This document shows positions 15,339 through 23,335 of a DNA stretch of 51,828 bases, piece by piece. The notes beneath the pieces were generated by a model. It saw nothing but the letters and a program-made list of their open reading frames with translations. It searched no databases and was not told where the DNA came from. The stretch is from Cyanobacteria bacterium J06626_4 (lineage in GTDB: Bacteria > Cyanobacteriota > Cyanobacteriia > Phormidesmidales > Phormidesmidaceae), in assembly GCA_038523235.1 (NCBI GenBank), contig JBCBJQ010000035.1:1-51828 (forward strand), given 5' to 3'. The stretch's first letter is position 1. Each line of letters begins with the position of its first letter. A program made the translations under genes and the position numbers.

Positions 15339-16520
15339 TTATCCCTTGACGCACATCACCTGCTTGAGCGTAGCCACGACCTCAACCAGATCGGCCTGGT
15401 TGGCCATCACCTGCTCAATCGGCTTGTACGCACCCGGAATTTCATCCAGGACACCGGCATCTTTGCGGCACTCGACACCCGCCGTTTGCTGCACCAGATC
15501 ATCCAGCGTAAAGGCCTTCTTTGCCTTGGTGCGAGACATTTGACGACCCGCCCCGTGGGAGCAAGAGCAAAACGCCGCAGCAGCCCCCTTGCCCTTCACA
15601 ATGAAGGATTTCGCCCCCATTGAGCCGGGAATGATACCGTAGTCGTTTTTCTGCGCCCGCACGGCCCCCTTCCGAGTCACGTACACATCTTCGCCAAAAT
15701 GCACTTCGCGCTCGGCGTAGTTGTGGTGGCAGTTGACCTGCAGTTCTGGCTTAAAGGGCTTGCCACCCGCCAACTGCGTTTCGACCACCCGCTTAAACCG
15801 GGCCATCATGACCTCTCGATTGCGCAGGGCGTAGTTTTGCGCCCACTGCAGATCGCGCCAGTACGCCTCAAACTCCGGCGTGCCCTGCACAAAGTGCGAC
15901 AGATCCGGATCAGGCAGCTTCAGGCCCGCCAGCTTCGCCAGCGCTTTGGCTGACTCAATATGGCGCTGGGCCAGCATGTTGCCGATATGGCGGCTGCCAG
16001 AGTGCAGCATCAGCCAGACCTGGGCGTCGGTATCCACACACAACTCGATGAAATGGTTACCGCCGCCGAGGCTGCCCATCTGCTTTTGAGCTTTATCTTG
16101 GAGCTTTTGCACTTTAGGGTGCAGCTCCTTGAAGTCACTCCAGCCCTGCCAGTTGGTGACGTCTTTATCAACTTGCTGGTTTTGGTTAAAGCCAACAGGA
16201 ATCAGCTTTTCAACCTCGGTGCGAATCTGCTTGAGTTTGCCGTCGAGCTGATCGGCGTGATACGGGGTTTTGACGGCGCACATGCCGCAGCCAATATCGA
16301 CCCCCACCGCCGCTGGCACGATCGCTTCCTTCGTCGCCACCACCGAGCCGACCAGTGCCCCTTTACCCAAATGAACGTCGGGCATCAGGGCCACATGCTT
16401 GTGGACAAAAGGCAGCGAGGCCACATTTTGGGCCATCTTGGTTTCGTTAGCACCCAGCTCATGCCCCGCCCAAGACAGCACGGGCACCGCTGTTGATAGA
16501 TCTAATGGCATGTAAGGCAT
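15339..16520 (-). CDS. rtcB: RNA 2',3'-cyclic phosphate ligase RtcB
   Basis: MPDVHLGKG, VGVDIGCG, GGGNHFIE, HSGSR, HHNY, TRKGA, PGSMG, SHGAGR, DEIPGAYK. Confidence 0.97.
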   Translation of the reverse strand: MPYMPLDLSTAVPVLSWAGHELGANETKMAQNVASLPFVHKHVALMPDVHLGKGALVGSVVATKEAIVPAAVGVDIGCGMCAVKTPYHADQLDGKLKQIRTEVEKLIPVGFNQNQQVDKDVTNWQGWSDFKELHPKVQKLQDKAQKQMGSLGGGNHFIELCVDTDAQVWLMLHSGSRHIGNMLAQRHIESAKALAKLAGLKLPDPDLSHFVQGTPEFEAYWRDLQWAQNYALRNREVMMARFKRVVETQLAGGKPFKPELQVNCHHNYAEREVHFGEDVYVTRKGAVRAQKNDYGIIPGSMGAKSFIVKGKGAAAAFCSCSHGAGRQMSRTKAKKAFTLDDLVQQTAGVECRKDAGVLDEIPGAYKPIEQVMANQADLVEVVATLKQVMCVKG

Positions 16521-16720
16521 AGCTTGTATCCTTTTGTGTTTGTAAAAATTTCCCCGTTCAGGAAACCATCAAAGTTTCATCATTGAAGTCTGCTCGCTCA
16601 GGAATGAGTGACTGACGTTGATCGCCAGTTTTCCCCTTACCCAACCCTCACTGATTCGATAAATCAATACGCGGTAGTAAACGGTTACAGTACCCGATGC
16701 GCTTGTCACAATACTGGGCG

Positions 16721-16841
16721 TGATTTGTAAATGGGATTTGAACCCATCTGCACTGCCCCAGTGCAACCAGGGGATCGGTGAACAGCCGATGGATTCCAAC
16801 TTGATCCAGTTGGCGGATTCGTATTCGCCTTTATCAAATCA
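16721..16841 (-). ncRNA. Cloverleaf-like structured RNA upstream of rtcB
   Basis: Closing stem TGATTTG/CAAATCA; arms GGCG/CGCC, ATCGG/CCGAT, TGCACTG/CAGTGCA; T-arm ATGGG-TTCAAAT-CCCAT. Confidence 0.55.
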
Positions 16842-16937
16842 GCTACCAACTCATTTCCCTGGAATGGATTGAGGGCCACTGTTTAGCGACCCTCAATCCT
16901 CCGTTTTCTGAGCGGACTAACCCTTATCCAGATTCAG

Positions 16938-17112
16938 ACCTGGAGTTTTTGCCGCCGATCTAACCTCACCGCCTGCAGCACCTCTCCTTAATTAAGGAGA
17001 GGTTGACTCACAGTCTGGTCAAAAGTCAGGTTCAAATTGAACAAGGACTCCGGTTCCTCTCTTTGATAAGGAGAGGTCAGGTGAGGTTTGTGCCATCGCT
17101 CAAAACTCAGGT
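16938..17112. mobile_element. MITE-like palindromic repeat
   Basis: ACCTGGAGTTTT...AAAACTCAGGT ends; internal AACCTCACC/GGTGAGGTT and two CCTCTC-N-GAGAGG hairpins. Confidence 0.55.
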
Positions 17113-17130: not shown

Positions 17131-17589
17131 TTATGCCTCCACCAGATCCGTGGCCCAATTAAGCGCCTGAATCTGAGCGTCTAACTCACGATACTCGCGC
17201 GAAAGCTGGTCGATCTGGCGTTGCAGTTCAGCCACATTCACCGTGCTCACCAGCCGTAATTCCGATCGCATGTACCGCTCTTGCGAAATCGCTGCTGCCC
17301 CGATGAGGCTGTCATAGGCGGTGCGCTTGAGCCGTAGCGTATCTCGGGTGGCCAATACATCAGACAACACCCCAGCTTGAAACGGCGTAACCGAGTTGGT
17401 GCGATTAATTTGTTGAATCAACCGCGTCAGCTCGTCGGTGGTCGCTTCTAACTCTGCCAGCAATACTTGCGGATCTTCTGGCGGCTGCTCGCCTTCTTGC
17501 ACCCGAGCACTCCGCATCAGTCGCTGCCGCAGTTGAGCCACCCGCTTTTGGGCATCAGCTCGCAAAATCAAGGCTTCTGCCAACTTCAT
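17131..17589 (-). CDS. DIP1984-family coiled-coil protein
   Basis: 'MKLAEALILRAD...VQEGEQPPEDP...INRTN...IQALNW'; RBS AGGAGGTGA. Confidence 0.85.
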   Translation of the reverse strand: MKLAEALILRADAQKRVAQLRQRLMRSARVQEGEQPPEDPQVLLAELEATTDELTRLIQQINRTNSVTPFQAGVLSDVLATRDTLRLKRTAYDSLIGAAAISQERYMRSELRLVSTVNVAELQRQIDQLSREYRELDAQIQALNWATDLVEA

Positions 17590-17651: not shown

Positions 17652-17932
17652 CTAAAAGTAGTGGTCGCGCAGGCTGCCGTCGTATCGCCCGCTATTGCGA
17701 CAGCATCGCTTGAAAGCAACGTCCCGAACCGCAAGGACACAGGTCGTTGTTGCCGAGTTTTTCCTGCAGTTCTTTATCGCCGTGCACGATACGGACACCT
17801 CGTTTCACCGCAGTTTCAGATGGATAGCCACGACGCCGTTTGCTTGAGCGAACAAAAGCCAGCGGCGGTTTCGTCAAAGTCTGCCGAGAGATCTTCGAGG
17901 TTGATTTTGGCGTTGGGGTTAAAGCGTTTCAT
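17652..17932 (-). CDS. SEC-C zinc-binding protein encoded across three frames (two +1 shifts), ~92 aa
   Basis: RBS GGAGGTGA then ATG 17932; +1 at TTT-T (17857-17854); +1 at TTT-C (17715-17712) completes [18 protein letters not shown]. Confidence 0.7.
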
Positions 17933-17965: not shown

Positions 17966-18758
17966 TTACTTTGACTGCTGGGCTAACTGGTTCTTGATCA
18001 GCCGAATTTCCTTTTTATTGCACTGCTGTTTGCTCACCGCATAAACTTTGCGTCCTGCGATATATTCAGCAGTCTGGGCAGAGACCTGACCCTGCAAAAT
18101 ATCGGTAACCGGGTCGATGCAAATTGCTGGAAATTCAGCAAACGTCACCCGATACCAAATGCCCTTGAGTTGGCGATACTGATGATTAGCATCGATCGCT
18201 AAGACATCGGTCGGGGGAGTGGGTTTTGGCTTCCGACGTTTTTTCTCCACCAGACAAAGCAAGCCTGTTTCTGGATGGACGTAGAAGCGATCGTGATAAC
18301 TACTTACTAGGGGAGCAAAGCTGCCCCACTCTGGCTTTTCATATAGAACACCCTCAATGATTTCGGTGTGCCGAACCACGTCATCCCAGACATGACTGAG
18401 CACATGCTGTCCCGCCAAGGTGTTGGTATTCAACTGGCGGCACAGCTTGCTGTAAACGTCGTTCCAAGGTTGACCGACGTGCGATCGCAAAAACCGTCGC
18501 AGTGGCCCTAAATGATCAGACAAATACTTAGACTTGTCTCTCGGCTTAATCAAATACGGACTGAGTAAGCCATCCTCACTGGCCTCCTGGGTGAGTTTGT
18601 GCAAGCGCTTTTTGACACCCTTCAACTTTCGAGAACTCATCCGCATACCACTCCGAGGACGTTCAATGACAATTTCGCTCAAACGATGCTCGCTCATAGA
18701 TTTGACTGTGCATAAAGTTGGACTGCGATCGTTGGGTTGTGATGCGAAATGACGTCAT
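17966..18758 (-). CDS. Conserved basic hypothetical protein, probably initiated at 18758 with +1 shift at TTT-C
   Basis: 243-aa ORF from 18697 has no visible SD; SD-led ATG at 18758 joins it in the +1 frame without stops. Confidence 0.7.
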
Positions 18759-18818: not shown

Positions 18819-18919
18819 TGGGGTGACTGACGGGACTCTAACCCGCTAATACTGGTGTCACAAACCAGCGCCGCGATCGCTTTGGCTAGCCCCTCCGGGG
18901 CGGCTTCGCCAACAGTCAC
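18819..18919 (-). tRNA. tRNA-His(GTG) copy 2, interrupted by 24-nt insert (18889-18912)
   Basis: GTGACTG/CAGTCAC-C-CCA; CTGGT-TTGTGAC-ACCAG. Confidence 0.75.
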
Positions 18920-18921
18920 AG

Positions 18922-18995
18922 TGGATTCGGTGGGAGTTGAACCCACAACCTCCTGTGTGCAAGACAGGCGCTCTCCCAGTTAGAGCTACGAACCC
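18922..18995 (-). tRNA. tRNA-Ala(TGC)
   Basis: GGGTTCG/CGAATCC with G3.U70; loop CTTGCAC. Confidence 0.9.
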
Positions 18996-19000
18996 AAGAG

Positions 19001-19097
19001 CAGGCGTGGCAGGAGTTGTTCGCAAAGCGTCTCCGGAGGAGAAACCTACACAGGTCGATTTAGAAGACCGATGCCCTTTCCATTAGGCGACACGCCT
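19001..19097 (-). tRNA. tRNA-Arg(TCT), interrupted in T-loop (19019-19042)
   Basis: AGGCGTG/CACGCCT; loop CTTCTAA; GTAGG-TT[24 nt]CAACT-CCTGC. Confidence 0.8.
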
Positions 19098-19102
19098 ATA
19101 TC

Positions 19103-19177
19103 TGGTAGTCCTGGTAGGAATTGAACCTACAACCTCTCGTTTGTAAGACGCTTGCTCTACCGTTGAGCTACAGGACC
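19103..19177 (-). tRNA. tRNA-Val(TAC)
   Basis: Cloverleaf with CCA; loop CTTACAA; weak anticodon stem. Confidence 0.8.
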
Positions 19178-19182
19178 ACCCA

Positions 19183-19253
19183 AGCGAGTGATGGGAGTTG
19201 AACCCATGCGCTGAGACTGGCAGACTCAGATGCTACCGCTACATCACACCCGC
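19183..19253 (-). tRNA. tRNA-Gly(GCC)
   Basis: GCGGGTG/CACTCGC-T; loop CTGCCAG. Confidence 0.8.
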
Positions 19254-19259
19254 ATTGAT

Positions 19260-19334
19260 TGGAGCGAAAGACGAGATTTGCACTCGTGTCTCCTGGTTGG
19301 AAGCCAGGGATGCTAGCTGCTGCACTACTTTCGC
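19260..19334 (-). tRNA. tRNA-Gly(TCC)
   Basis: GCGAAAG/CTTTCGC-T-CCA; loop CTTCCAA; T-loop TGCAAAT. Confidence 0.85.
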
Positions 19335-19337
19335 AAA

Positions 19338-19412
19338 TGGGGCTGGTGACAGGAGTTGAACCTGCAACCGACTGTTTACAAAACAGTTGCTCTACCGTTG
19401 AGCCACACCAGC
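19338..19412 (-). tRNA. tRNA-Thr(TGT)
   Basis: GCTGGTG/CACCAGC-C-CCA; loop TTTGTAA. Confidence 0.9.
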
Positions 19413-19415
19413 TTG

Positions 19416-19492
19416 TGGACGCGGGGGTGAGAATTGCACTCACTGATTTGAAGGGTATGAACCTTCCGAGCCACTGTTGCTCCATCCCCGCA
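19416..19492 (-). tRNA. tRNA-Met(CAT), atypical
   Basis: TGCGGGG/CCCCGCG-T-CCA; GAAGG-TTCATAC-CCTTC. Confidence 0.7.
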
Positions 19493-19566
19493 TACCCCTG
19501 ACAGGAGTCGAACCTGCAACAAACTTGTTTTAAGCAAGCCATGTCTACCAGTTGCATCACAGGGGT
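19493..19566 (-). tRNA. tRNA-Leu(TAA), short variable loop, no intron
   Basis: ACCCCTG/CAGGGGT-A; loop CTTAAAA. Confidence 0.85.
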
Positions 19567-19578
19567 TAAGAACCTTAG

Positions 19579-19640
19579 TTTGACGATGCTAGATTTCAAA
19601 TTGTGCAAATCTAAAATTCAAAATCGTCAATCTAAAATCC
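19579..19640. repeat. STRR-type heptamer repeats (also 19717-19742)
   Basis: AAAATTC/AAAATCG/TCAATCT-like units between tRNA genes. Confidence 0.6.
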
Positions 19641-19642
19641 CA

Positions 19643-19715
19643 TGGGCTGTATAGGACTTGAACCTATGCACTGCCGCTTAAGAGGCGGCTGCTCTGCCAG
19701 CTGAGCTAACAACCC
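19643..19715 (-). tRNA. tRNA-Lys(CTT)
   Basis: GGGTTGT/ACAGCCC; loop CTCTTAA. Confidence 0.9.
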
Positions 19716-19748
19716 GTAAAATTGAAAATTCAAAATTTTCAATGCCAG

Positions 19749-19820
19749 TGGGTCGCCCAGGGGTTGAACCTGGATCTCTCCGCTTAAAAGGCGGCTGTAT
19801 ATCCGCTCTGCCAGCGACCC
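19749..19820 (-). tRNA. tRNA-Lys(TTT)
   Basis: GGGTCGC/GCGACCC; loop CTTTTAA; weak D-stem. Confidence 0.8.
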
Positions 19821-19827
19821 AGACAAG

Positions 19828-19903
19828 TGGTACACCGAGCAGGAATCGAACCTGCTATAACGCACTAATCAGGTGCGCGCGTCACCATTTTCGCCTTCGG
19901 TGC
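19828..19903 (-). tRNA. tRNA-Ile(GAT)
   Basis: GCACCGA/TCGGTGT-A-CCA; CGCAC-CTGATTA-GTGCG. Confidence 0.8.
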
Positions 19904-19919
19904 TTGAGCCTTCCCATCA

Positions 19920-20075
19920 ACTCCTTGACCCCAAGCAAGACTTCTGACCACTGAATGACATCCTGATTGGTACTCCTACTGAGAGTCGTATGTCCTTCAG
20001 ACAGATTGCGTCCACGCGTCAGTGTCTCCAAAGGAGAAACCCACACGTAGGCTATTTCTAAGGCAGCCGCCTCTG
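19920..20075 (-). pseudogene. Decayed duplicate of the tRNA-Leu(TAG)/tRNA-Pro(TGG) pair with 49-nt nested insertion
   Basis: Aligns by eye to 20229-20336; insert 19989-20037 sits in the Leu T-loop. Confidence 0.75.
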
Positions 20076-20104
20076 TAGACGGGCAGTCCACAGTTGCTTG
20101 TAAT

Positions 20105-20182
20105 TGGTGTGACCGACGAGAGTCGAACTCGTTAATACTGGTTTCACAAACCAGCCCCGCCACCACTTTGGGTTCGGTCACC
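20105..20182 (-). tRNA. tRNA-His(GTG)
   Basis: G-1, GTGACCG/CGGTCAC-A-CCA; loop TTGTGAA. Confidence 0.8.
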
Positions 20183-20199
20183 ATATATTTTGATGAGAA

Positions 20200-20275
20200 T
20201 GGTCGGGATGGTAGGATTCGAACCCACGACTCCTTGGCCCCAAACCAAGGCTTCTGACCACTGAATTACATCCCG
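20200..20275 (-). tRNA. tRNA-Pro(TGG)
   Basis: CGGGATG/CATCCCG-A-CCA; loop TTTGGGG. Confidence 0.88.
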
Positions 20276-20277
20276 AT

Positions 20278-20355
20278 TGGTGCTCCTGGTAGGAGTCGAA
20301 CCTACACATGAACTGTTTCTAAGACAGTCGCCTCTGCCAGTTGGGCTACAGGAGC
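20278..20355 (-). tRNA. tRNA-Leu(TAG), short variable loop
   Basis: GCTCCTG/CAGGAGC-A-CCA; loop CTTAGAA. Confidence 0.88.
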
Positions 20356-20404
20356 ATGAACAGGAGGATAGAGCGTGGCTAGGCCACAAGCTCATGCCCC
20401 CCGA

Positions 20405-20478
20405 CAGGGAAGGAAGGAATCGAACCCTCAAACATCTGATTCAAAGTCAGATCGCTTTGCCAATTTGCGTACTTCCCT
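20405..20478 (-). tRNA. tRNA-Gln(TTG)
   Basis: AGGGAAG/CTTCCCT; loop CTTTGAA. Confidence 0.88.
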
Positions 20479-20586
20479 ATATAACGCCGACCAAATCGCT
20501 GACTACACCGAGTAAAGTTGAAACCTTTGCCATAGAAGCGATCTGGCTCGCAGTCTGGTCCTAACTGGACTGGCGACTGCGATCAA

Positions 20587-20688
20587 TGGATGCCGAGGCT
20601 GGATTTGTTCGCGCAGCGTCTCCGTTAGGAGTTACCAGCATCTCCGTGATTCAGAGTCACAGTGACTTTCCAAGTTGTCCACTCGGCA
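20587..20688 (-). tRNA. tRNA-Gln(CTG), interrupted in T-loop (20608-20632)
   Basis: TGCCGAG/CTCGGCA-T-CCA; loop CTCTGAA; GCTGG-TA[25 nt]CAAAT-CCAGC. Confidence 0.8.
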
Positions 20689-20693
20689 ATGAA

Positions 20694-20768
<75 letters not shown>

Positions 20769-20773
20769 ATGTA

Positions 20774-20846
20774 TGGGAAGTGACAGGATCGAACTGTCAT
20801 CTCGCCGTCTTCAGCGGCACGTGAGCACCAGCTTCACCAACTTCCC
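20774..20846 (-). tRNA. tRNA-Phe(GAA) with G37
   Basis: GGGAAGT/ACTTCCC-A; TGCCG-CTGAAGA-CGGCG. Confidence 0.85.
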
Positions 20847-20849
20847 ATT

Positions 20850-20934
20850 TGGCGGAGAGTAGAGGAATCGAACCCCTAGCTGTTAACTACCCTGGTTTTC
20901 AAGACCAGTTGCCGACCATTCAGCGGTACCCTCC
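20850..20934 (-). tRNA. tRNA-Ser(TGA)
   Basis: GGAGGGT/ACTCTCC-G-CCA; loop CTTGAAA; long variable arm. Confidence 0.88.
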
Positions 20935-20940
20935 ATGAAA

Positions 20941-21043
20941 TGGCGAGAACGGAAGGATTTGTTCGCGTGAGCGTCTCCGTTAGGAGAAACCTTCAGTCTT
21001 CGGTTTCGTAGACCAAGATGTTTTCCAGTTACACCACGTTCTC
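20941..21043 (-). tRNA. tRNA-Arg(ACG), interrupted in T-loop (20962-20987)
   Basis: GAGAACG/CGTTCTC-G-CCA; loop CTACGAA; GAAGG-TT[26 nt]CAAAT-CCTTC. Confidence 0.8.
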
Positions 21044-21049
21044 ATCAGG

Positions 21050-21131
21050 CGGAGAGCAGTGGACTTGAACCACAGACGCCAATCCCATCTGTTTAGCAAA
21101 CAGCGCCGATCGCCTGATCGGTTTACTCTCC
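21050..21131 (-). tRNA. tRNA-Ser(GCT), possibly degenerate
   Basis: GGAGAGT/GCTCTCC-G; loop TTGCTAA; poorly paired variable arm. Confidence 0.7.
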
Positions 21132-21149
21132 ATAAATTTAGACAACATC

Positions 21150-21310
21150 AGTACGGGATAAGAGAGAGCCTACCTGCCTAGTCGATGTTCCCCTCTCGGG
21201 AGGGGTTAGGGGTGGATTTCCGGCTCATTGCCAAGGGGTTGACCCACCCCGGCCTATGGCCACCCCTCCCATGGAGGGGATATTTCAGCCAGGTTTCTTT
21301 AACCCATACT
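21150..21310. mobile_element. MITE-like palindromic repeat inserted in the tRNA array
   Basis: Imperfect outer inverted repeat; CCCCTCTCGGGAGGGG-TTAGGGGTGG...CCACCCC...CCCCTCCCATGGAGGGG. Confidence 0.6.
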
Positions 21311-21323
21311 CAGGTTAGACAGG

Positions 21324-21406
21324 TGGGCAGGGAGGGACTCGAACCCCCAACGGTCAGGGACGACTGGTTTACAATCAGCCTGCTTCAGCCATTTGCATAC
21401 CTACCC
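21324..21406 (-). tRNA. tRNA-Tyr(GTA)
   Basis: GGGTAGG/CCTGCCC-A; loop TTGTAAA; long variable region. Confidence 0.85.
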
Positions 21407-21409
21407 ATT

Positions 21410-21486
21410 TGGCAGTGCTGATGGGAGTTGAACCCACAAACATCGACTTGAAAGATCGACGGCTTTACCAATTTGCCTACAGCACC
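21410..21486 (-). tRNA. tRNA-Glu(TTC)
   Basis: GGTGCTG/CAGCACT-G-CCA; loop CTTTCAA. Confidence 0.88.
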
Positions 21487-21515
21487 GAGAAATTTCTACG
21501 ACGTCCGCCGTAGAA

Positions 21516-21586
21516 CGCACAGACCAGGATTTGAACCCGGACAAAAGGTTTTGGAGACCTTTGTGCTGCCGTTACACCATCTGTGC
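21516..21586 (-). tRNA. tRNA-Trp(CCA)
   Basis: GCACAGA/TCTGTGC-G; AAGGT-CTCCAAA-ACCTT. Confidence 0.88.
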
Positions 21587-21661
21587 TGGTCGCAGCGGCG
21601 GGAATCGACCCCGCACCTGTCGGCTTATGAGGCCGCAGCTCTACCGTTAAGCTACGCTGCA
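21587..21661 (-). tRNA. tRNA-Met or Ile2 (CAT)
   Basis: TGCAGCG/CGCTGCG-A-CCA; loop CTCATAA. Confidence 0.8.
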
Positions 21662-21662
21662 G

Positions 21663-21738
21663 TGGACTCCAGGGCGGGAGTTGCACCCGCGATTGCTGGT
21701 TTTGCAGACCAGCGCCTTGCTAACTTGGCTACCTGGAG
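21663..21738 (-). tRNA. tRNA-Cys(GCA)
   Basis: CTCCAGG/CCTGGAG-T-CCA (U73); loop CTGCAAA. Confidence 0.88.
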
Positions 21739-21741
21739 ATT

Positions 21742-21824
21742 TGGTGGAGACGTGGAGAATTGAACTCCAGTCCTGCAGCCGTCCATTTGTCGGTTTCGGA
21801 GCAGTCAACTCCAGTTGCGTCCCC
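21742..21824 (-). ncRNA. Minimal tmRNA-like RNA (tRNA-like domain only)
   Basis: GGGGACG/CGTCTCC-A-CCA with G3.U70; D-region CAACTGGAGTTGAC; GGAC linker before T-arm; no anticodon arm or tag ORF. Confidence 0.7.
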
Positions 21825-21864
21825 ACGCACGAGGATGACCTGCTTCTGAGCAACATCCTCAACA

Positions 21865-21941
21865 TGGAAGCCTCGACGGGAGTTGCACCCGCTGCTCTGT
21901 GACTGAGAATCACAGCGACTTATCTATTCGTCCACGAGGCT
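21865..21941 (-). tRNA. tRNA-Glu(CTC)
   Basis: AGCCTCG/CGAGGCT-T-CCA; loop TTCTCAG. Confidence 0.75.
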
Positions 21942-21946
21942 ATCAA

Positions 21947-22135
21947 TAGCGGTGGCGGGACTTGAACCCGCGAGTTACCCGGCACCTTAAAACGCGCTTC
22001 CCCAACCCACATCTCTGCTTCGTCAGGTGCACTGCAAATTCGGCGATCCGGCTGCCCCTTACGTGTAATACCTGGGGGGCTATCCTCCAGCTGGTTCAAC
22101 GTTTGCTGGCGCTCTACCTCCTGAGCTACACCGCT
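21947..22135 (-). ncRNA. 189-nt tRNA-like RNA with large multibranched domain replacing the anticodon loop
   Basis: Perfect acceptor AGCGGTG/CACCGCT, D-arm GCTC/GAGC, T-arm GCGGG-TTCAAGT-CCCGC. Confidence 0.75.
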
Positions 22136-22138
22136 ATA

Positions 22139-22213
22139 CGGGAATGATGGGATTTGAACCCACGATCGCTCGTTCGACAAACGAGTGCTTTGACCGGACT
22201 AAGCTACATCCCC
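22139..22213 (-). tRNA. tRNA-Asp(GTC), first gene of array
   Basis: GGGGATG/CATTCCC-G; CTCGT-TTGTCGA-ACGAG. Confidence 0.9.
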
Positions 22214-22285
22214 AAGGTGGCAAATATTTAGTTTTCAAGGTTCTAAGGGCAGATTGTCAGCGCTGGGTAAGAGCGTGAAATCTTT

Positions 22286-22323
22286 ATACTACAAATGTAG
22301 TATACATACTACAAAAATGTCAA
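22286..22323 (-). promoter_or_regulatory. Array promoter overlapped by TGTAGTAT boxes (putative TrcR-type operator)
   Basis: Minus strand TTGACA-TTTT-TGTAGTAT-GT-ATACTACA-TT-TGTAGTAT. Confidence 0.75.
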
Positions 22324-22401: not shown

Positions 22402-22782
22402 TCAAGCGGAAACCGGAGGCTCGCTGAGCTGCCACAGTCGATAGATGAGTGATTCGGCCCGCTCACCAATTGCCGCTAAAAACATCCCCTCGTGAGCATC
22501 GGGGTTGGCGGCAATCCAGCTGCCGCTGAGGCTGATTTCGACAAACTGGTCGTCGACAGGCAGCACTGCGGCACCGCGATCGGGCTCAGCTTGTAGTACG
22601 GTTTGTAACTGACCCAGCTCAGCAATTTGAGTGGGTAGCAAAAAGCCAGCGTGGCCCGGTTCTACATGCAAGGTCTGGGCCATGCCCAGCGTCAGCAGTA
22701 CGTGCTGAGCAATTACCCGCTCGGGAGCAGCCATGAGCCACTCCATGTAGAGTCCAATTTCGGTGTAGTTCAGCTTCAACAT
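22402..22782 (-). CDS. alr0857-like cyanobacterial protein
   Basis: 'MLKLNYTEIGLYME...VEISLSGSWIA...EGMF'; RBS GGAGG; follows the HNH gene. Confidence 0.75.
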   Translation of the reverse strand: MLKLNYTEIGLYMEWLMAAPERVIAQHVLLTLGMAQTLHVEPGHAGFLLPTQIAELGQLQTVLQAEPDRGAAVLPVDDQFVEISLSGSWIAANPDAHEGMFLAAIGERAESLIYRLWQLSEPPVSA

Positions 22783-22807: not shown

Positions 22808-23335
22808 TTAGTCAGGGGGATGTTCGGTCCAAAACTGTTCGGCAAAGGCCATGACCGGGTGCATGGGGGCTTTGGGTTTGGTTTTGAGGGTCAGATTGGC
22901 CGTCGGTAACAGGCGATCGCCCTTGGCGCTATTGCACGGGGCGCAGGCTGTGACGACGTTGTCCCAACTGTGGGAGCCGCCCTTAGAACGGGGTATGACG
23001 TGGTCAATGGTGAGCTGTTTGGAGCTGCCGCAATACTGGCAACGGTGCTGATCCCGGCGAAAGACTTCCCGGCGCGTCACTGGGGGCACTTTCCAATGCC
23101 GCTCACGATGGCCGCCCACCAAGCGAATGTGTTCTGACACCTGCAGGACGAGGCTGGGCGATCGCACCTCCCACTGTTGAGTAGTGCCAAACTCCAGAGC
23201 CTCAGCCCGTTCGGTCACCAGCAACACGACGGCTCGCTTTAAGGTGATCCGCGCCAGGGGCAGGTAGTTTTTGGAAAACACCACCACCGGATTTTTGAAC
23301 CGGGAGAGCGTTTGACTGGCTTGTTGTGTAGGCAT
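22808..23335 (-). CDS. HNH endonuclease (small McrA-like)
   Basis: 'VFRRDQHRCQYCG...LTIDHVIPRSKGGSHSWDNVVTACAPCNSAKG'; RBS GAGG before ATG 23335. Confidence 0.93.
   Translation of the reverse strand: MPTQQASQTLSRFKNPVVVFSKNYLPLARITLKRAVVLLVTERAEALEFGTTQQWEVRSPSLVLQVSEHIRLVGGHRERHWKVPPVTRREVFRRDQHRCQYCGSSKQLTIDHVIPRSKGGSHSWDNVVTACAPCNSAKGDRLLPTANLTLKTKPKAPMHPVMAFAEQFWTEHPPD

What the first reader, a model, noticed from the sequence alone, without database searches (positions are those of the whole stretch)
20774..20846. Array tRNA-Phe has G37: candidate shift-prone tRNA that unlocks the frameshifted genes
Seen: the anticodon loop is CT-GAA-GA, so position 37 is G. Known: bacterial tRNA-Phe normally has A37 (ms2i6A via MiaA/MiaB); TrmD methylates G37 only in a G36-G37 context; hypomodified position 37 promotes frameshifting. 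Inference: this tRNA may stay unmodified at 37 and slip on UUU-Y. The operon would then carry its own key, with downstream proteins made only once the cryptic tRNAs are matured and charged. Speculative, but a coherent system.
Basis: inference. Interest (0 to 1): 0.78.

Follow-up and report, generated by a model that had tools for sequence, protein, structure and literature searches.

The report
Array tRNA-Phe G37 beside frameshifting gene
A spare, stress-induced phenylalanine tRNA carries an unusual base next to its anticodon and sits upstream of a small bacterial gene that can be read only if the ribosome slips forward twice; the slippery gene is real and widespread, but it also occurs in genomes where no such tRNA was found, so the tRNA is at most a helper, not the key.

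Summary
G37 is real (20809; the host tRNA-Phe has A37). It belongs to a cyanobacterial L-array (trn operon). G37 is the norm for accessory tRNA-Phe: 31 of 35 readable copies of this sequence type, 9 of 9 array copies of other types found without a G37 filter, and many viral copies. Array Asp also has G37, while array Leu, Gln and Arg lose it. Only one downstream gene has conserved shifts: a 92-codon SEC-C gene with two +1 shifts at TTT-Y. The rule 'in-frame TTT + pyrimidine = four-base step' restores 39 of 49 genome loci and 62 of 80 metagenome loci across phyla; none was intact without a shift. A strict key is not supported. No G37 Phe was found in 14 of 18 non-cyanobacterial genomes with a restorable gene. 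Two arrays keep the gene with their Phe anticodon interrupted. 31 of 39 genomes with this tRNA type lack the gene, and co-expressed genes do not avoid TTT-Y. Best reading: ordinary tRNA-Phe slips under translational stress, and G37 is part of array-wide loop remodelling. A booster role remains open (about 0.25). No bench data.

The parts
20774..20846 (-). array tRNA-Phe(GAA), loop CT-GAA-GA, no encoded CCA
20809..20809 (-). G37 (anticodon 20812-20810)
18830..22214 (-). L-array / trn operon: 24 tRNA genes by ARAGORN plus others, some with short inserts
22139..22213 (-). array tRNA-Asp(GTC), also G37 (host Asp has A37)
22270..22315 (-). promoter region with repeated TACTACA-type boxes; TrcR-type operator inferred from position (consensus not read from the paper)
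   Evidence: PMC8421152 section 22
17652..17932 (-). SEC-C (zinc-motif) gene, 92 aa only after two +1 shifts; strong Shine-Dalgarno before the ATG
17854..17857 (-). +1 shift site 1, TTT-T (Phe26)
17712..17715 (-). +1 shift site 2, TTT-C (Phe73), inside the SEC-C motif
17966..18697 (-). 243-aa ORF of no listed family, own ATG; not a conserved TTT-Y gene
18663..18758 (-). 31-codon upstream ORF with Shine-Dalgarno, overlapping the 243-aa start
17131..17589 (-). DIP1984 family (DUF6847) gene, intact
15339..16520 (-). rtcB RNA ligase, intact
22808..23335 (-). HNH endonuclease upstream of the array
22402..22782 (-). alr0857-family gene

Best explanation
Two real features share one stress module without one depending on the other. 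(1) The SEC-C gene is a serial +1 programmed-frameshift gene. Peptidyl-tRNA-Phe(GAA) in the P site slips from UUU to the overlapping UUY, most often while the zero-frame A-site codon is UGA, UAA, CGA or CAA. Two or three such slips are needed, so full-length protein is made mainly when frame maintenance is weak (translational stress; possibly under-modified host A37). Any tRNA-Phe(GAA) can do this. (2) G37 is a conserved trait of accessory (L-array and phage) tRNA-Phe and part of an array-wide exchange of position 37 (Phe and Asp gain G; Leu, Gln and Arg(CCG) have A). It most likely changes how the loop is modified (no MiaA/MiaB substrate) or recognised by tRNases. Shown: the sequence patterns and their distribution. 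Inferred: the ribosomal slip, its trigger and the purpose of G37.
For: TTT-Y rule: 39 of 49 genome loci and 62 of 80 metagenome loci restored with every TTT-Y shifting; 2 further metagenome loci need one unshifted TTT-Y; none is intact without a shift. Next best of 256 alternative step rules: 4 of 49 against 36 and 12 of 80 against 62. Third-position entropy is highest in the shifted frame (1.44 vs 0.68 and 0.62). 86 distinct genes carry 183 sites at several different Phe positions. UUU_Ynn is described as especially +1-prone in bacteria (PMC5009743 passage). Independence from G37: no G37 Phe found in 14 of 18 non-cyanobacterial genomes with a restorable gene. G658 (4.74-Mb contig, 46 Rfam tRNA matches, no array, two double-shift copies) and G697 (47 matches, triple shift) show only A37 Phe. 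G011 and G034 keep the double-shift gene beside an anticodon-interrupted Phe. 31 of 39 genomes with this tRNA type lack the gene, 20 of them with an intact G37 anticodon. No TTT-Y avoidance in array-linked ORFs (OR 0.96, p 0.82). Position-37 table over 24 arrays: Phe G 16/16, Asp G 19/21, Leu-TAG A 22/23, Leu-CAG A 10/10, Gln-TTG A 22/23, Arg-CCG A 9/9 (some of these arrays were found through a G37 pattern).
Against: The gene is strongly tied to arrays in cyanobacteria: 13 of 18 gene-bearing genomes have an array Phe, against a floor of 48 of 401 overall (I looked harder in gene-bearing genomes, and kin are not independent). It lies directly downstream of G37 arrays also in G512 and in metagenome loci, and about 60 bases behind a lone G37 Phe-like RNA in two Nostoc loci. 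G37 is kept across tRNA bodies only 33-63% identical. Absences rest on patterns that missed true cases earlier (searches missed G169, G254, G200 or G230 copies) and partly on MAGs. No function for G37 was tested. In PCC 7120 some operon tRNAs, not the host ones tested, were cleaved (PMC8421152 section 24), which weakens simple nuclease evasion.
Confidence: 0.5

Rival explanations
1. Booster: the G37 tRNA is more slip-prone than ms2i6A37 host tRNA-Phe and raises UUU-Y shifting when the operon is induced, but it is not required.
For: Cis linkage, and G37 in all intact cis copies. The review passage suggests that bulky modification at 37 of tRNA-Phe may inhibit +1 shifting, whereas simple m1G37 goes with the most efficient site (PMC5009743). 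Deleting trcR, which derepresses trn and other genes, raised +1, -1 and readthrough errors on lacZ reporters (PMC10272220 section 11). The PCC 7120 G37 Phe is charged.
Against: No TTT-Y depletion in co-expressed genes. Triple-shift genes occur where no G37 Phe was found (G697, G443, G075). The trcR effect is general and not assigned to any tRNA. The 15-kb PCC 7120 plasmid stretch around the operon has no SEC-C gene (chromosome not searched).
Confidence: 0.25
2. Protective or off-switch tRNA: G37 (methylated by a relaxed TrmD, or pairing with the C that precedes UUU) holds the frame better than under-modified host A37 tRNA, so array induction damps the shift.
For: C precedes the shifting TTT at 141 of 183 sites, against 26 of 48 read-through TTT-R in the same genes and 39% genome-wide. 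By inference, an unmodified A37 would gain an A-U pair on slipping, whereas G37 would trade G-C for G-U. A. aeolicus TrmD methylates A36G37; trmD and miaA are both present in G000.
Against: The pairing argument is inference only. The 5' C may act through the E-site codon, as in the influenza UCC_UUU_CGU cassette. Sites are phylogenetically non-independent.
Confidence: 0.12
3. Strict key: downstream proteins are made only through the G37 tRNA.
For: Co-location and conservation of G37.
Against: Gene present without the tRNA in near-complete genomes; tRNA present without the gene; only one downstream gene is shifted.
Confidence: 0.05
4. G37 is a near-neutral inherited state of array tRNAs with no special function.
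For: 4 of 35 readable type-1 copies are A37, and 10 of 47 are interrupted at the anticodon, so the gene is often dispensable.
Against: G37 persists in bodies 33-63% identical across phyla and in many viral tRNA-Phe. At least two of the A37 copies carry other stem mismatches.
Confidence: 0.08

Closest known systems
Anabaena PCC 7120 trn operon / L-arrays, TrcR regulon (PMC8421152: sections 21, 22, 24, 28 and passages; PMC10272220: sections 11, 13 and passages)
   Same: Long one-strand tRNA array, HNH gene upstream, rtcB link, alr0857-family gene, repeat boxes at the promoter; operon tRNA-Phe is G37 there too.
   Different: In PMC8421152 the terms G37, position 37, SEC-C and frameshift gave no hits. 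In PMC10272220 SEC-C gave none and frameshift refers to lacZ reporters; G37 was not searched there. Here rtcB and a double-shift gene lie directly downstream of the array.
prfB (RF2) +1 frameshift at CUU-UGA and UUU_Ynn slippage (PMC5009743, passages)
   Same: P-site re-pairing by +1, often before UGA or UAA; UUU-Y as the shift tetranucleotide.
   Different: Two to three obligatory shifts in a ~90-codon gene, at several different Phe codons, often before sense codons (CAA, CGA); not a release-factor gene; internal Shine-Dalgarno stimulators not examined.
Influenza PA-X-type cassette UCC_UUU_CGU (PMC5009743, passage)
   Same: Site 1 consensus (U)(C/G)C-UUU-YGA closely resembles it.
   Different: Bacterial cellular gene; the shift appears obligatory for the full-length product.
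Phage tRNAs with altered anticodon loops (PMC10264068, section 4)
   Same: Accessory tRNAs differ from host tRNAs in loop bases outside the anticodon.
   Different: That paper has no Phe case (0 hits for 'Phe'); no nuclease with G37/A37 specificity was identified here.
Streptomyces bldA tRNA gating UUA codons (recalled)
   Same: The idea of a tRNA that gates a gene set.
   Different: bldA is the sole reader of its codon; here the host has a cognate tRNA and the gene exists without the accessory one.
Archaeal/eukaryotic tRNA-Phe G37 (m1G, wyosine) and Mycoplasma m1G37 tRNA-Phe (the Mycoplasma case recalled, not checked)
   Same: G37 next to A36.
   Different: Those are housekeeping tRNAs with dedicated modification; the modification state here is unknown.

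Membership tests
L-array / trn operon | long tandem tRNA array redundant with a full housekeeping set | tested here: met
   24 ARAGORN genes within 3.3 kb plus about 40 housekeeping genes elsewhere
L-array / trn operon | HNH gene upstream, rtcB linked | tested here: met
L-array / trn operon | repeat operator over the -10 box | tested here: inconclusive
   repeats present at the promoter; consensus not read from the papers; trcR gene not searched
L-array / trn operon | silent normally, induced by translational stress | not testable with these tools
   shown for PCC 7120 only (PMC8421152)
programmed +1 ribosomal frameshift gene | conserved frame break with coding selection in both frames | tested here: met
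programmed +1 ribosomal frameshift gene | shift site allows cognate re-pairing | tested here: met
   all 183 counted sites are TTT-Y by rule; rival rules restore at most 4 of 49 and 12 of 80; two unrestored loci (L102, L630) break at other codons
programmed +1 ribosomal frameshift gene | trans-frame product or measured shift rate | not testable with these tools
   needs reporter, MS or ribosome profiling
dedicated gating / frameshift-suppressor tRNA | target gene does not occur without the tRNA | tested here: not met
   G658, G697, G443, G612, G011, G034 and others; pattern-limited
dedicated gating / frameshift-suppressor tRNA | enlarged loop or altered anticodon | tested here: not met
   normal 7-nt loop, GAA anticodon
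dedicated gating / frameshift-suppressor tRNA | position 37 left unmodified | not testable with these tools
   E. coli TrmD needs G36 (PMC11199890), A. aeolicus TrmD accepts A36 (PMC5372735); cyanobacterial enzyme untested
dedicated gating / frameshift-suppressor tRNA | charged and used in translation | tested here: inconclusive
   the PCC 7120 G37 homologue (another sequence type) is charged, with aberrant mobility; this copy untested
nuclease-evading accessory tRNA | loop change at a known nuclease site | not tested
   no cognate nuclease identified

The most novel reading that the evidence does not exclude
L-arrays and many phages carry a natural, stress-induced slip-prone tRNA-Phe (G37) that raises four-base reading of UUU-Y, and a multi-phylum SEC-C gene family uses two or three such sites as an AND-gate, so that its protein appears mainly when such tRNA or comparable stress is present: a conditional local change of the genetic code in bacteria.
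Probability: 0.25. Interest if true: 0.9.

Novelty: new variant of a known kind. Interest (0 to 1): 0.7.

Why it matters
Conserved programmed +1 frameshifting in bacterial cellular genes is rare (prfB is the textbook case; own knowledge). A ~90-codon family across several phyla that needs two or three slips, at whichever Phe codon is followed by a pyrimidine, looks like a built-in fidelity sensor. Databases hold it as truncated mid-frame products. It offers a natural reporter for UUU-Y slippage. The array-wide swap at position 37 gives a concrete, testable handle on the open question of what L-array and phage tRNAs do that host tRNAs cannot. Anabaena tools (trn deletion, trcR deletion) already exist to test the G37 allele.

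Tried and rejected
243-aa ORF as a second TTT-Y gene: rejected. Pseudogene or sequencing error for SEC-C: rejected by conservation and the rule controls. Transcriptional slippage: unlikely, since 42 of 82 sites have only three T followed by C (inference). TTT-Y avoidance test: negative in array-linked ORFs, in rtcB homologues (12/7 vs 61/49, p 0.62) and genome-wide; the alr0857 row of that call was out of frame and is dropped. Pattern searches that failed as censuses: too loose; gap mis-set, missed type 1; required A38; repeated in 72, 74, 75. One search returned only 20 family members among 80 loci; the other 60 generic SEC-C hits were left out. No SEC-C relative was found in 'phages' or viral contigs; two plasmid records matched, and the one inspected looks decayed. 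Structure prediction was low-confidence (pLDDT 60, pTM 0.33), so no fold search was run; PDB sequence hits are to the SecA/YchJ SEC-C motif only. Sequencing runs: no RNA holder listed. Literature searches gave no description of this gene's shifts or of G37 in array Phe; the library lacks most subscription papers and no supplements were read (GeneTack cluster tables in PMC3711429 and alignments in PMC8421152 could bear on this). Six look-ups of earlier findings (26, 62, 63, 92, 114, 115) were empty. One genome (G566) was not scored.

Full report
Observation. The window holds a tRNA array on the minus strand (24 ARAGORN genes; Rfam), with an HNH gene and an alr0857-family gene upstream and a 243-aa ORF, a SEC-C gene, a DIP1984 gene and rtcB downstream. 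This layout matches the cyanobacterial L-array / trn operon (PMC8421152, sections 21, 22, 24, 28 and passages read; PMC10272220, sections 11, 13 and passages read). The Phe gene at 20774-20846 folds as a cloverleaf with loop CT-GAA-GA, so G37 is real; the housekeeping Phe has A37.

How general is G37? A BLAST of this tRNA over 401 genomes of the class matched 39 genomes and 47 genes: 31 G37, 4 A37, 10 interrupted at the anticodon by a ~24-nt insert, 1 with a loop deletion and 1 truncated. Six of the 31 have an insert in the T-loop. Arrays with other Phe bodies that were reached without a G37 filter were G37 in 9 of 9 cases (L040, L047, L592, L593, L606, L607, L655, L679, L734); L655 is the PCC 7120 operon. 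G37 Phe also occurs in arrays of two Acidobacteria, one Obscuribacterales genome and one genome of the class of G434 (found through G37 patterns). Seven sequence types share only 33-63% identity. Viral contigs gave 45 and at least 118 G37 stretches, with 44 and 117 G37 Phe genes confirmed by ARAGORN. Over 24 arrays, Asp is also G37 (19 of 21), while Leu-TAG, Leu-CAG, Gln-TTG and Arg-CCG, which are G37 in the host set, are A37 (22/23, 10/10, 22/23, 9/9). G37 in Phe is therefore one item in a systematic rewriting of position 37.

Which genes are shifted? The gene at 17932-17652 gives a 92-aa SEC-C protein only with +1 shifts at TTT-T (Phe26) and TTT-C (Phe73) (PF02810). Database homologues come from several phyla and are mostly mid-frame fragments (120 of 770 hits listed and viewed). 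Reading every in-frame TTT followed by a pyrimidine as a four-base step, from an ATG/GTG with a Shine-Dalgarno word, restored 36-37 of 49 genome loci under strict motifs and 39 under looser ones; the 10 others are truncated, divergent, missed by the motifs or break elsewhere. In a second set, 62 of 80 metagenome loci (51 distinct) were restored, 2 more needed one unshifted TTT-Y, and 16 were not restored. No locus was intact without a shift. The best of 256 alternative rules restored 4 and 12. Across 86 distinct genes there are 183 sites, one to three per gene, at several Phe positions; 48 TTT-purine codons and 85 TTC codons (49 before a pyrimidine) read through (this set is conditioned on being restored). 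Zero-frame A-site codons are mostly CAA, TGA, CGA and TAA. Variation after site 2 is concentrated at third positions of the shifted frame. The 243-aa ORF is not such a gene; rtcB and DIP1984 are intact.

For a link: 13 of the 18 class genomes with the gene have an array Phe; the gene often lies directly behind the array, also in G512 and in metagenome contigs, where all 4 intact cis Phe genes are G37; in two Nostoc loci a lone G37 Phe-like RNA lies just upstream. Against dependence: of 18 genomes outside the class with a restorable gene, 4 have a G37 Phe (3 of them on another contig) and in 14 none was found. G658 and G697, drawn with a 99% completeness filter, have 46 and 47 Rfam tRNA matches, no array and only A37 Phe, yet carry double- and triple-shift genes. 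G011 (2 contigs) and G034 keep the double-shift gene although the cis Phe is interrupted at the anticodon; no other G37 Phe was found there, and G034 has a second, A37 array copy. Conversely, 31 of 39 genomes with this tRNA type lack the gene by both protein and profile search. Most metagenome loci have no array nearby. These absences are 'not found': my patterns missed true copies in several genomes before being widened, candidate rows were judged by eye with only some verified by ARAGORN, and many genomes are MAGs.

Would a slippery tRNA leave a mark? If array induction made UUU-Y broadly slippery, co-expressed genes should avoid TTT-Y. They do not (OR 0.96, p 0.82), and rtcB, DIP1984, the 243-aa gene and the HNH gene hold 1, 1, 2 and 3 in-frame TTT-Y. 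This also means that the SEC-C sites need some context or condition not identified here. One feature is a C before TTT at 141 of 183 sites, as in the influenza cassette named in PMC5009743 (passages).

Modification premise. E. coli TrmD needs G36 (PMC11199890, passages), but A. aeolicus TrmD methylates A36G37 (PMC5372735, passages). The genome has trmD and miaA. G37 cannot take i6A (own knowledge); whether it becomes m1G is open. The review passage that bulky modification at 37 may inhibit +1 shifting keeps a booster role plausible, as does the general loss of fidelity in a trcR mutant. The PCC 7120 operon Phe is charged, migrates aberrantly and gave no detectable mistranslation at UUC. PMC3082878 and PMC3711429 were read as passages only and added nothing on this gene; PMC10264068 was read as passages and section 4.

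Verdict. Observation confirmed; interpretation partly supported. The most likely picture is a serial +1 frameshift gene read by slipping tRNA-Phe(GAA) under translational stress and carried as cargo by L-arrays whose tRNAs have remodelled loops (0.5). Booster 0.25, protective tRNA 0.12, neutral 0.08, strict key 0.05. The multi-shift family was not found in the papers searched and is the stronger result; its protein's function is unknown beyond the SecA/YchJ-like zinc motif, and a role at the ribosome is only a guess from the motif and its neighbours.

Noticed in passing
window 18888-18915, 19001-19097, 20590-20680, 20944-21043: Several array tRNA genes carry ~25-nt hairpin inserts in the T-loop or D-stem, absent from the close relative G003 at two of the sites. 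They resemble the small dispersed repeats of cyanobacteria (recalled; one search did not retrieve the paper).
   Followed up: partly
L032:8571-8667, L034, L037, L041, L043, L343-L347, L349, L350: The type-1 Phe gene is interrupted in the anticodon by a ~24-nt insert in at least 12 arrays. Clean removal would leave a GTA anticodon on a Phe body, not GAA. Unexplained; removal by a nuclease plus RtcB is not excluded.
   Followed up: partly
L100:8200-9960 and L101: Nostoc loci with tRNA-like domains (CTA and GAA anticodons) inside a shared outer stem, before the SEC-C gene and a vWA-domain gene. They look like Ro60/Y-RNA modules (recalled; Rfam YrlA only 22.5 bits against a cut-off of 69, TROVE not matched). 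Related copies in other loci carry TAG, CAT, GCA or CCT anticodons.
   Followed up: partly
window 16560-16960 (-): About 400 nt between DIP1984 and rtcB with a tRNA-like T-arm motif; possibly a structured RNA; no Rfam match at E 0.5.
   Followed up: no
window 18663-18758 (-): A 31-33 codon upstream ORF with a strong Shine-Dalgarno overlaps the start of the 243-aa gene here and in Nostoc loci; possible translational coupling.
   Followed up: partly
window 21742-21824 and 21942-22137 (-): Rfam tmRNA score of 52 bits on an 83-nt tRNA-like gene, and a long interrupted tRNA-like gene next to it with a weak YrlA score.
   Followed up: no
window 19828-19903 (-): Array tRNA-Ile(GAT) has T37, whereas 9 of 10 array copies have A37; likely decay.
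   Followed up: no
L055 (G263) and L031 (G003): Natural variants: one copy has lost shift site 1 by a one-base change in length and is in frame there; the G003 copy has an internal deletion.
   Followed up: partly
G000:C77 near 1633 (-): A further promoter-like pair of TACTAC repeats elsewhere in the genome, a possible member of the same regulon.
   Followed up: no
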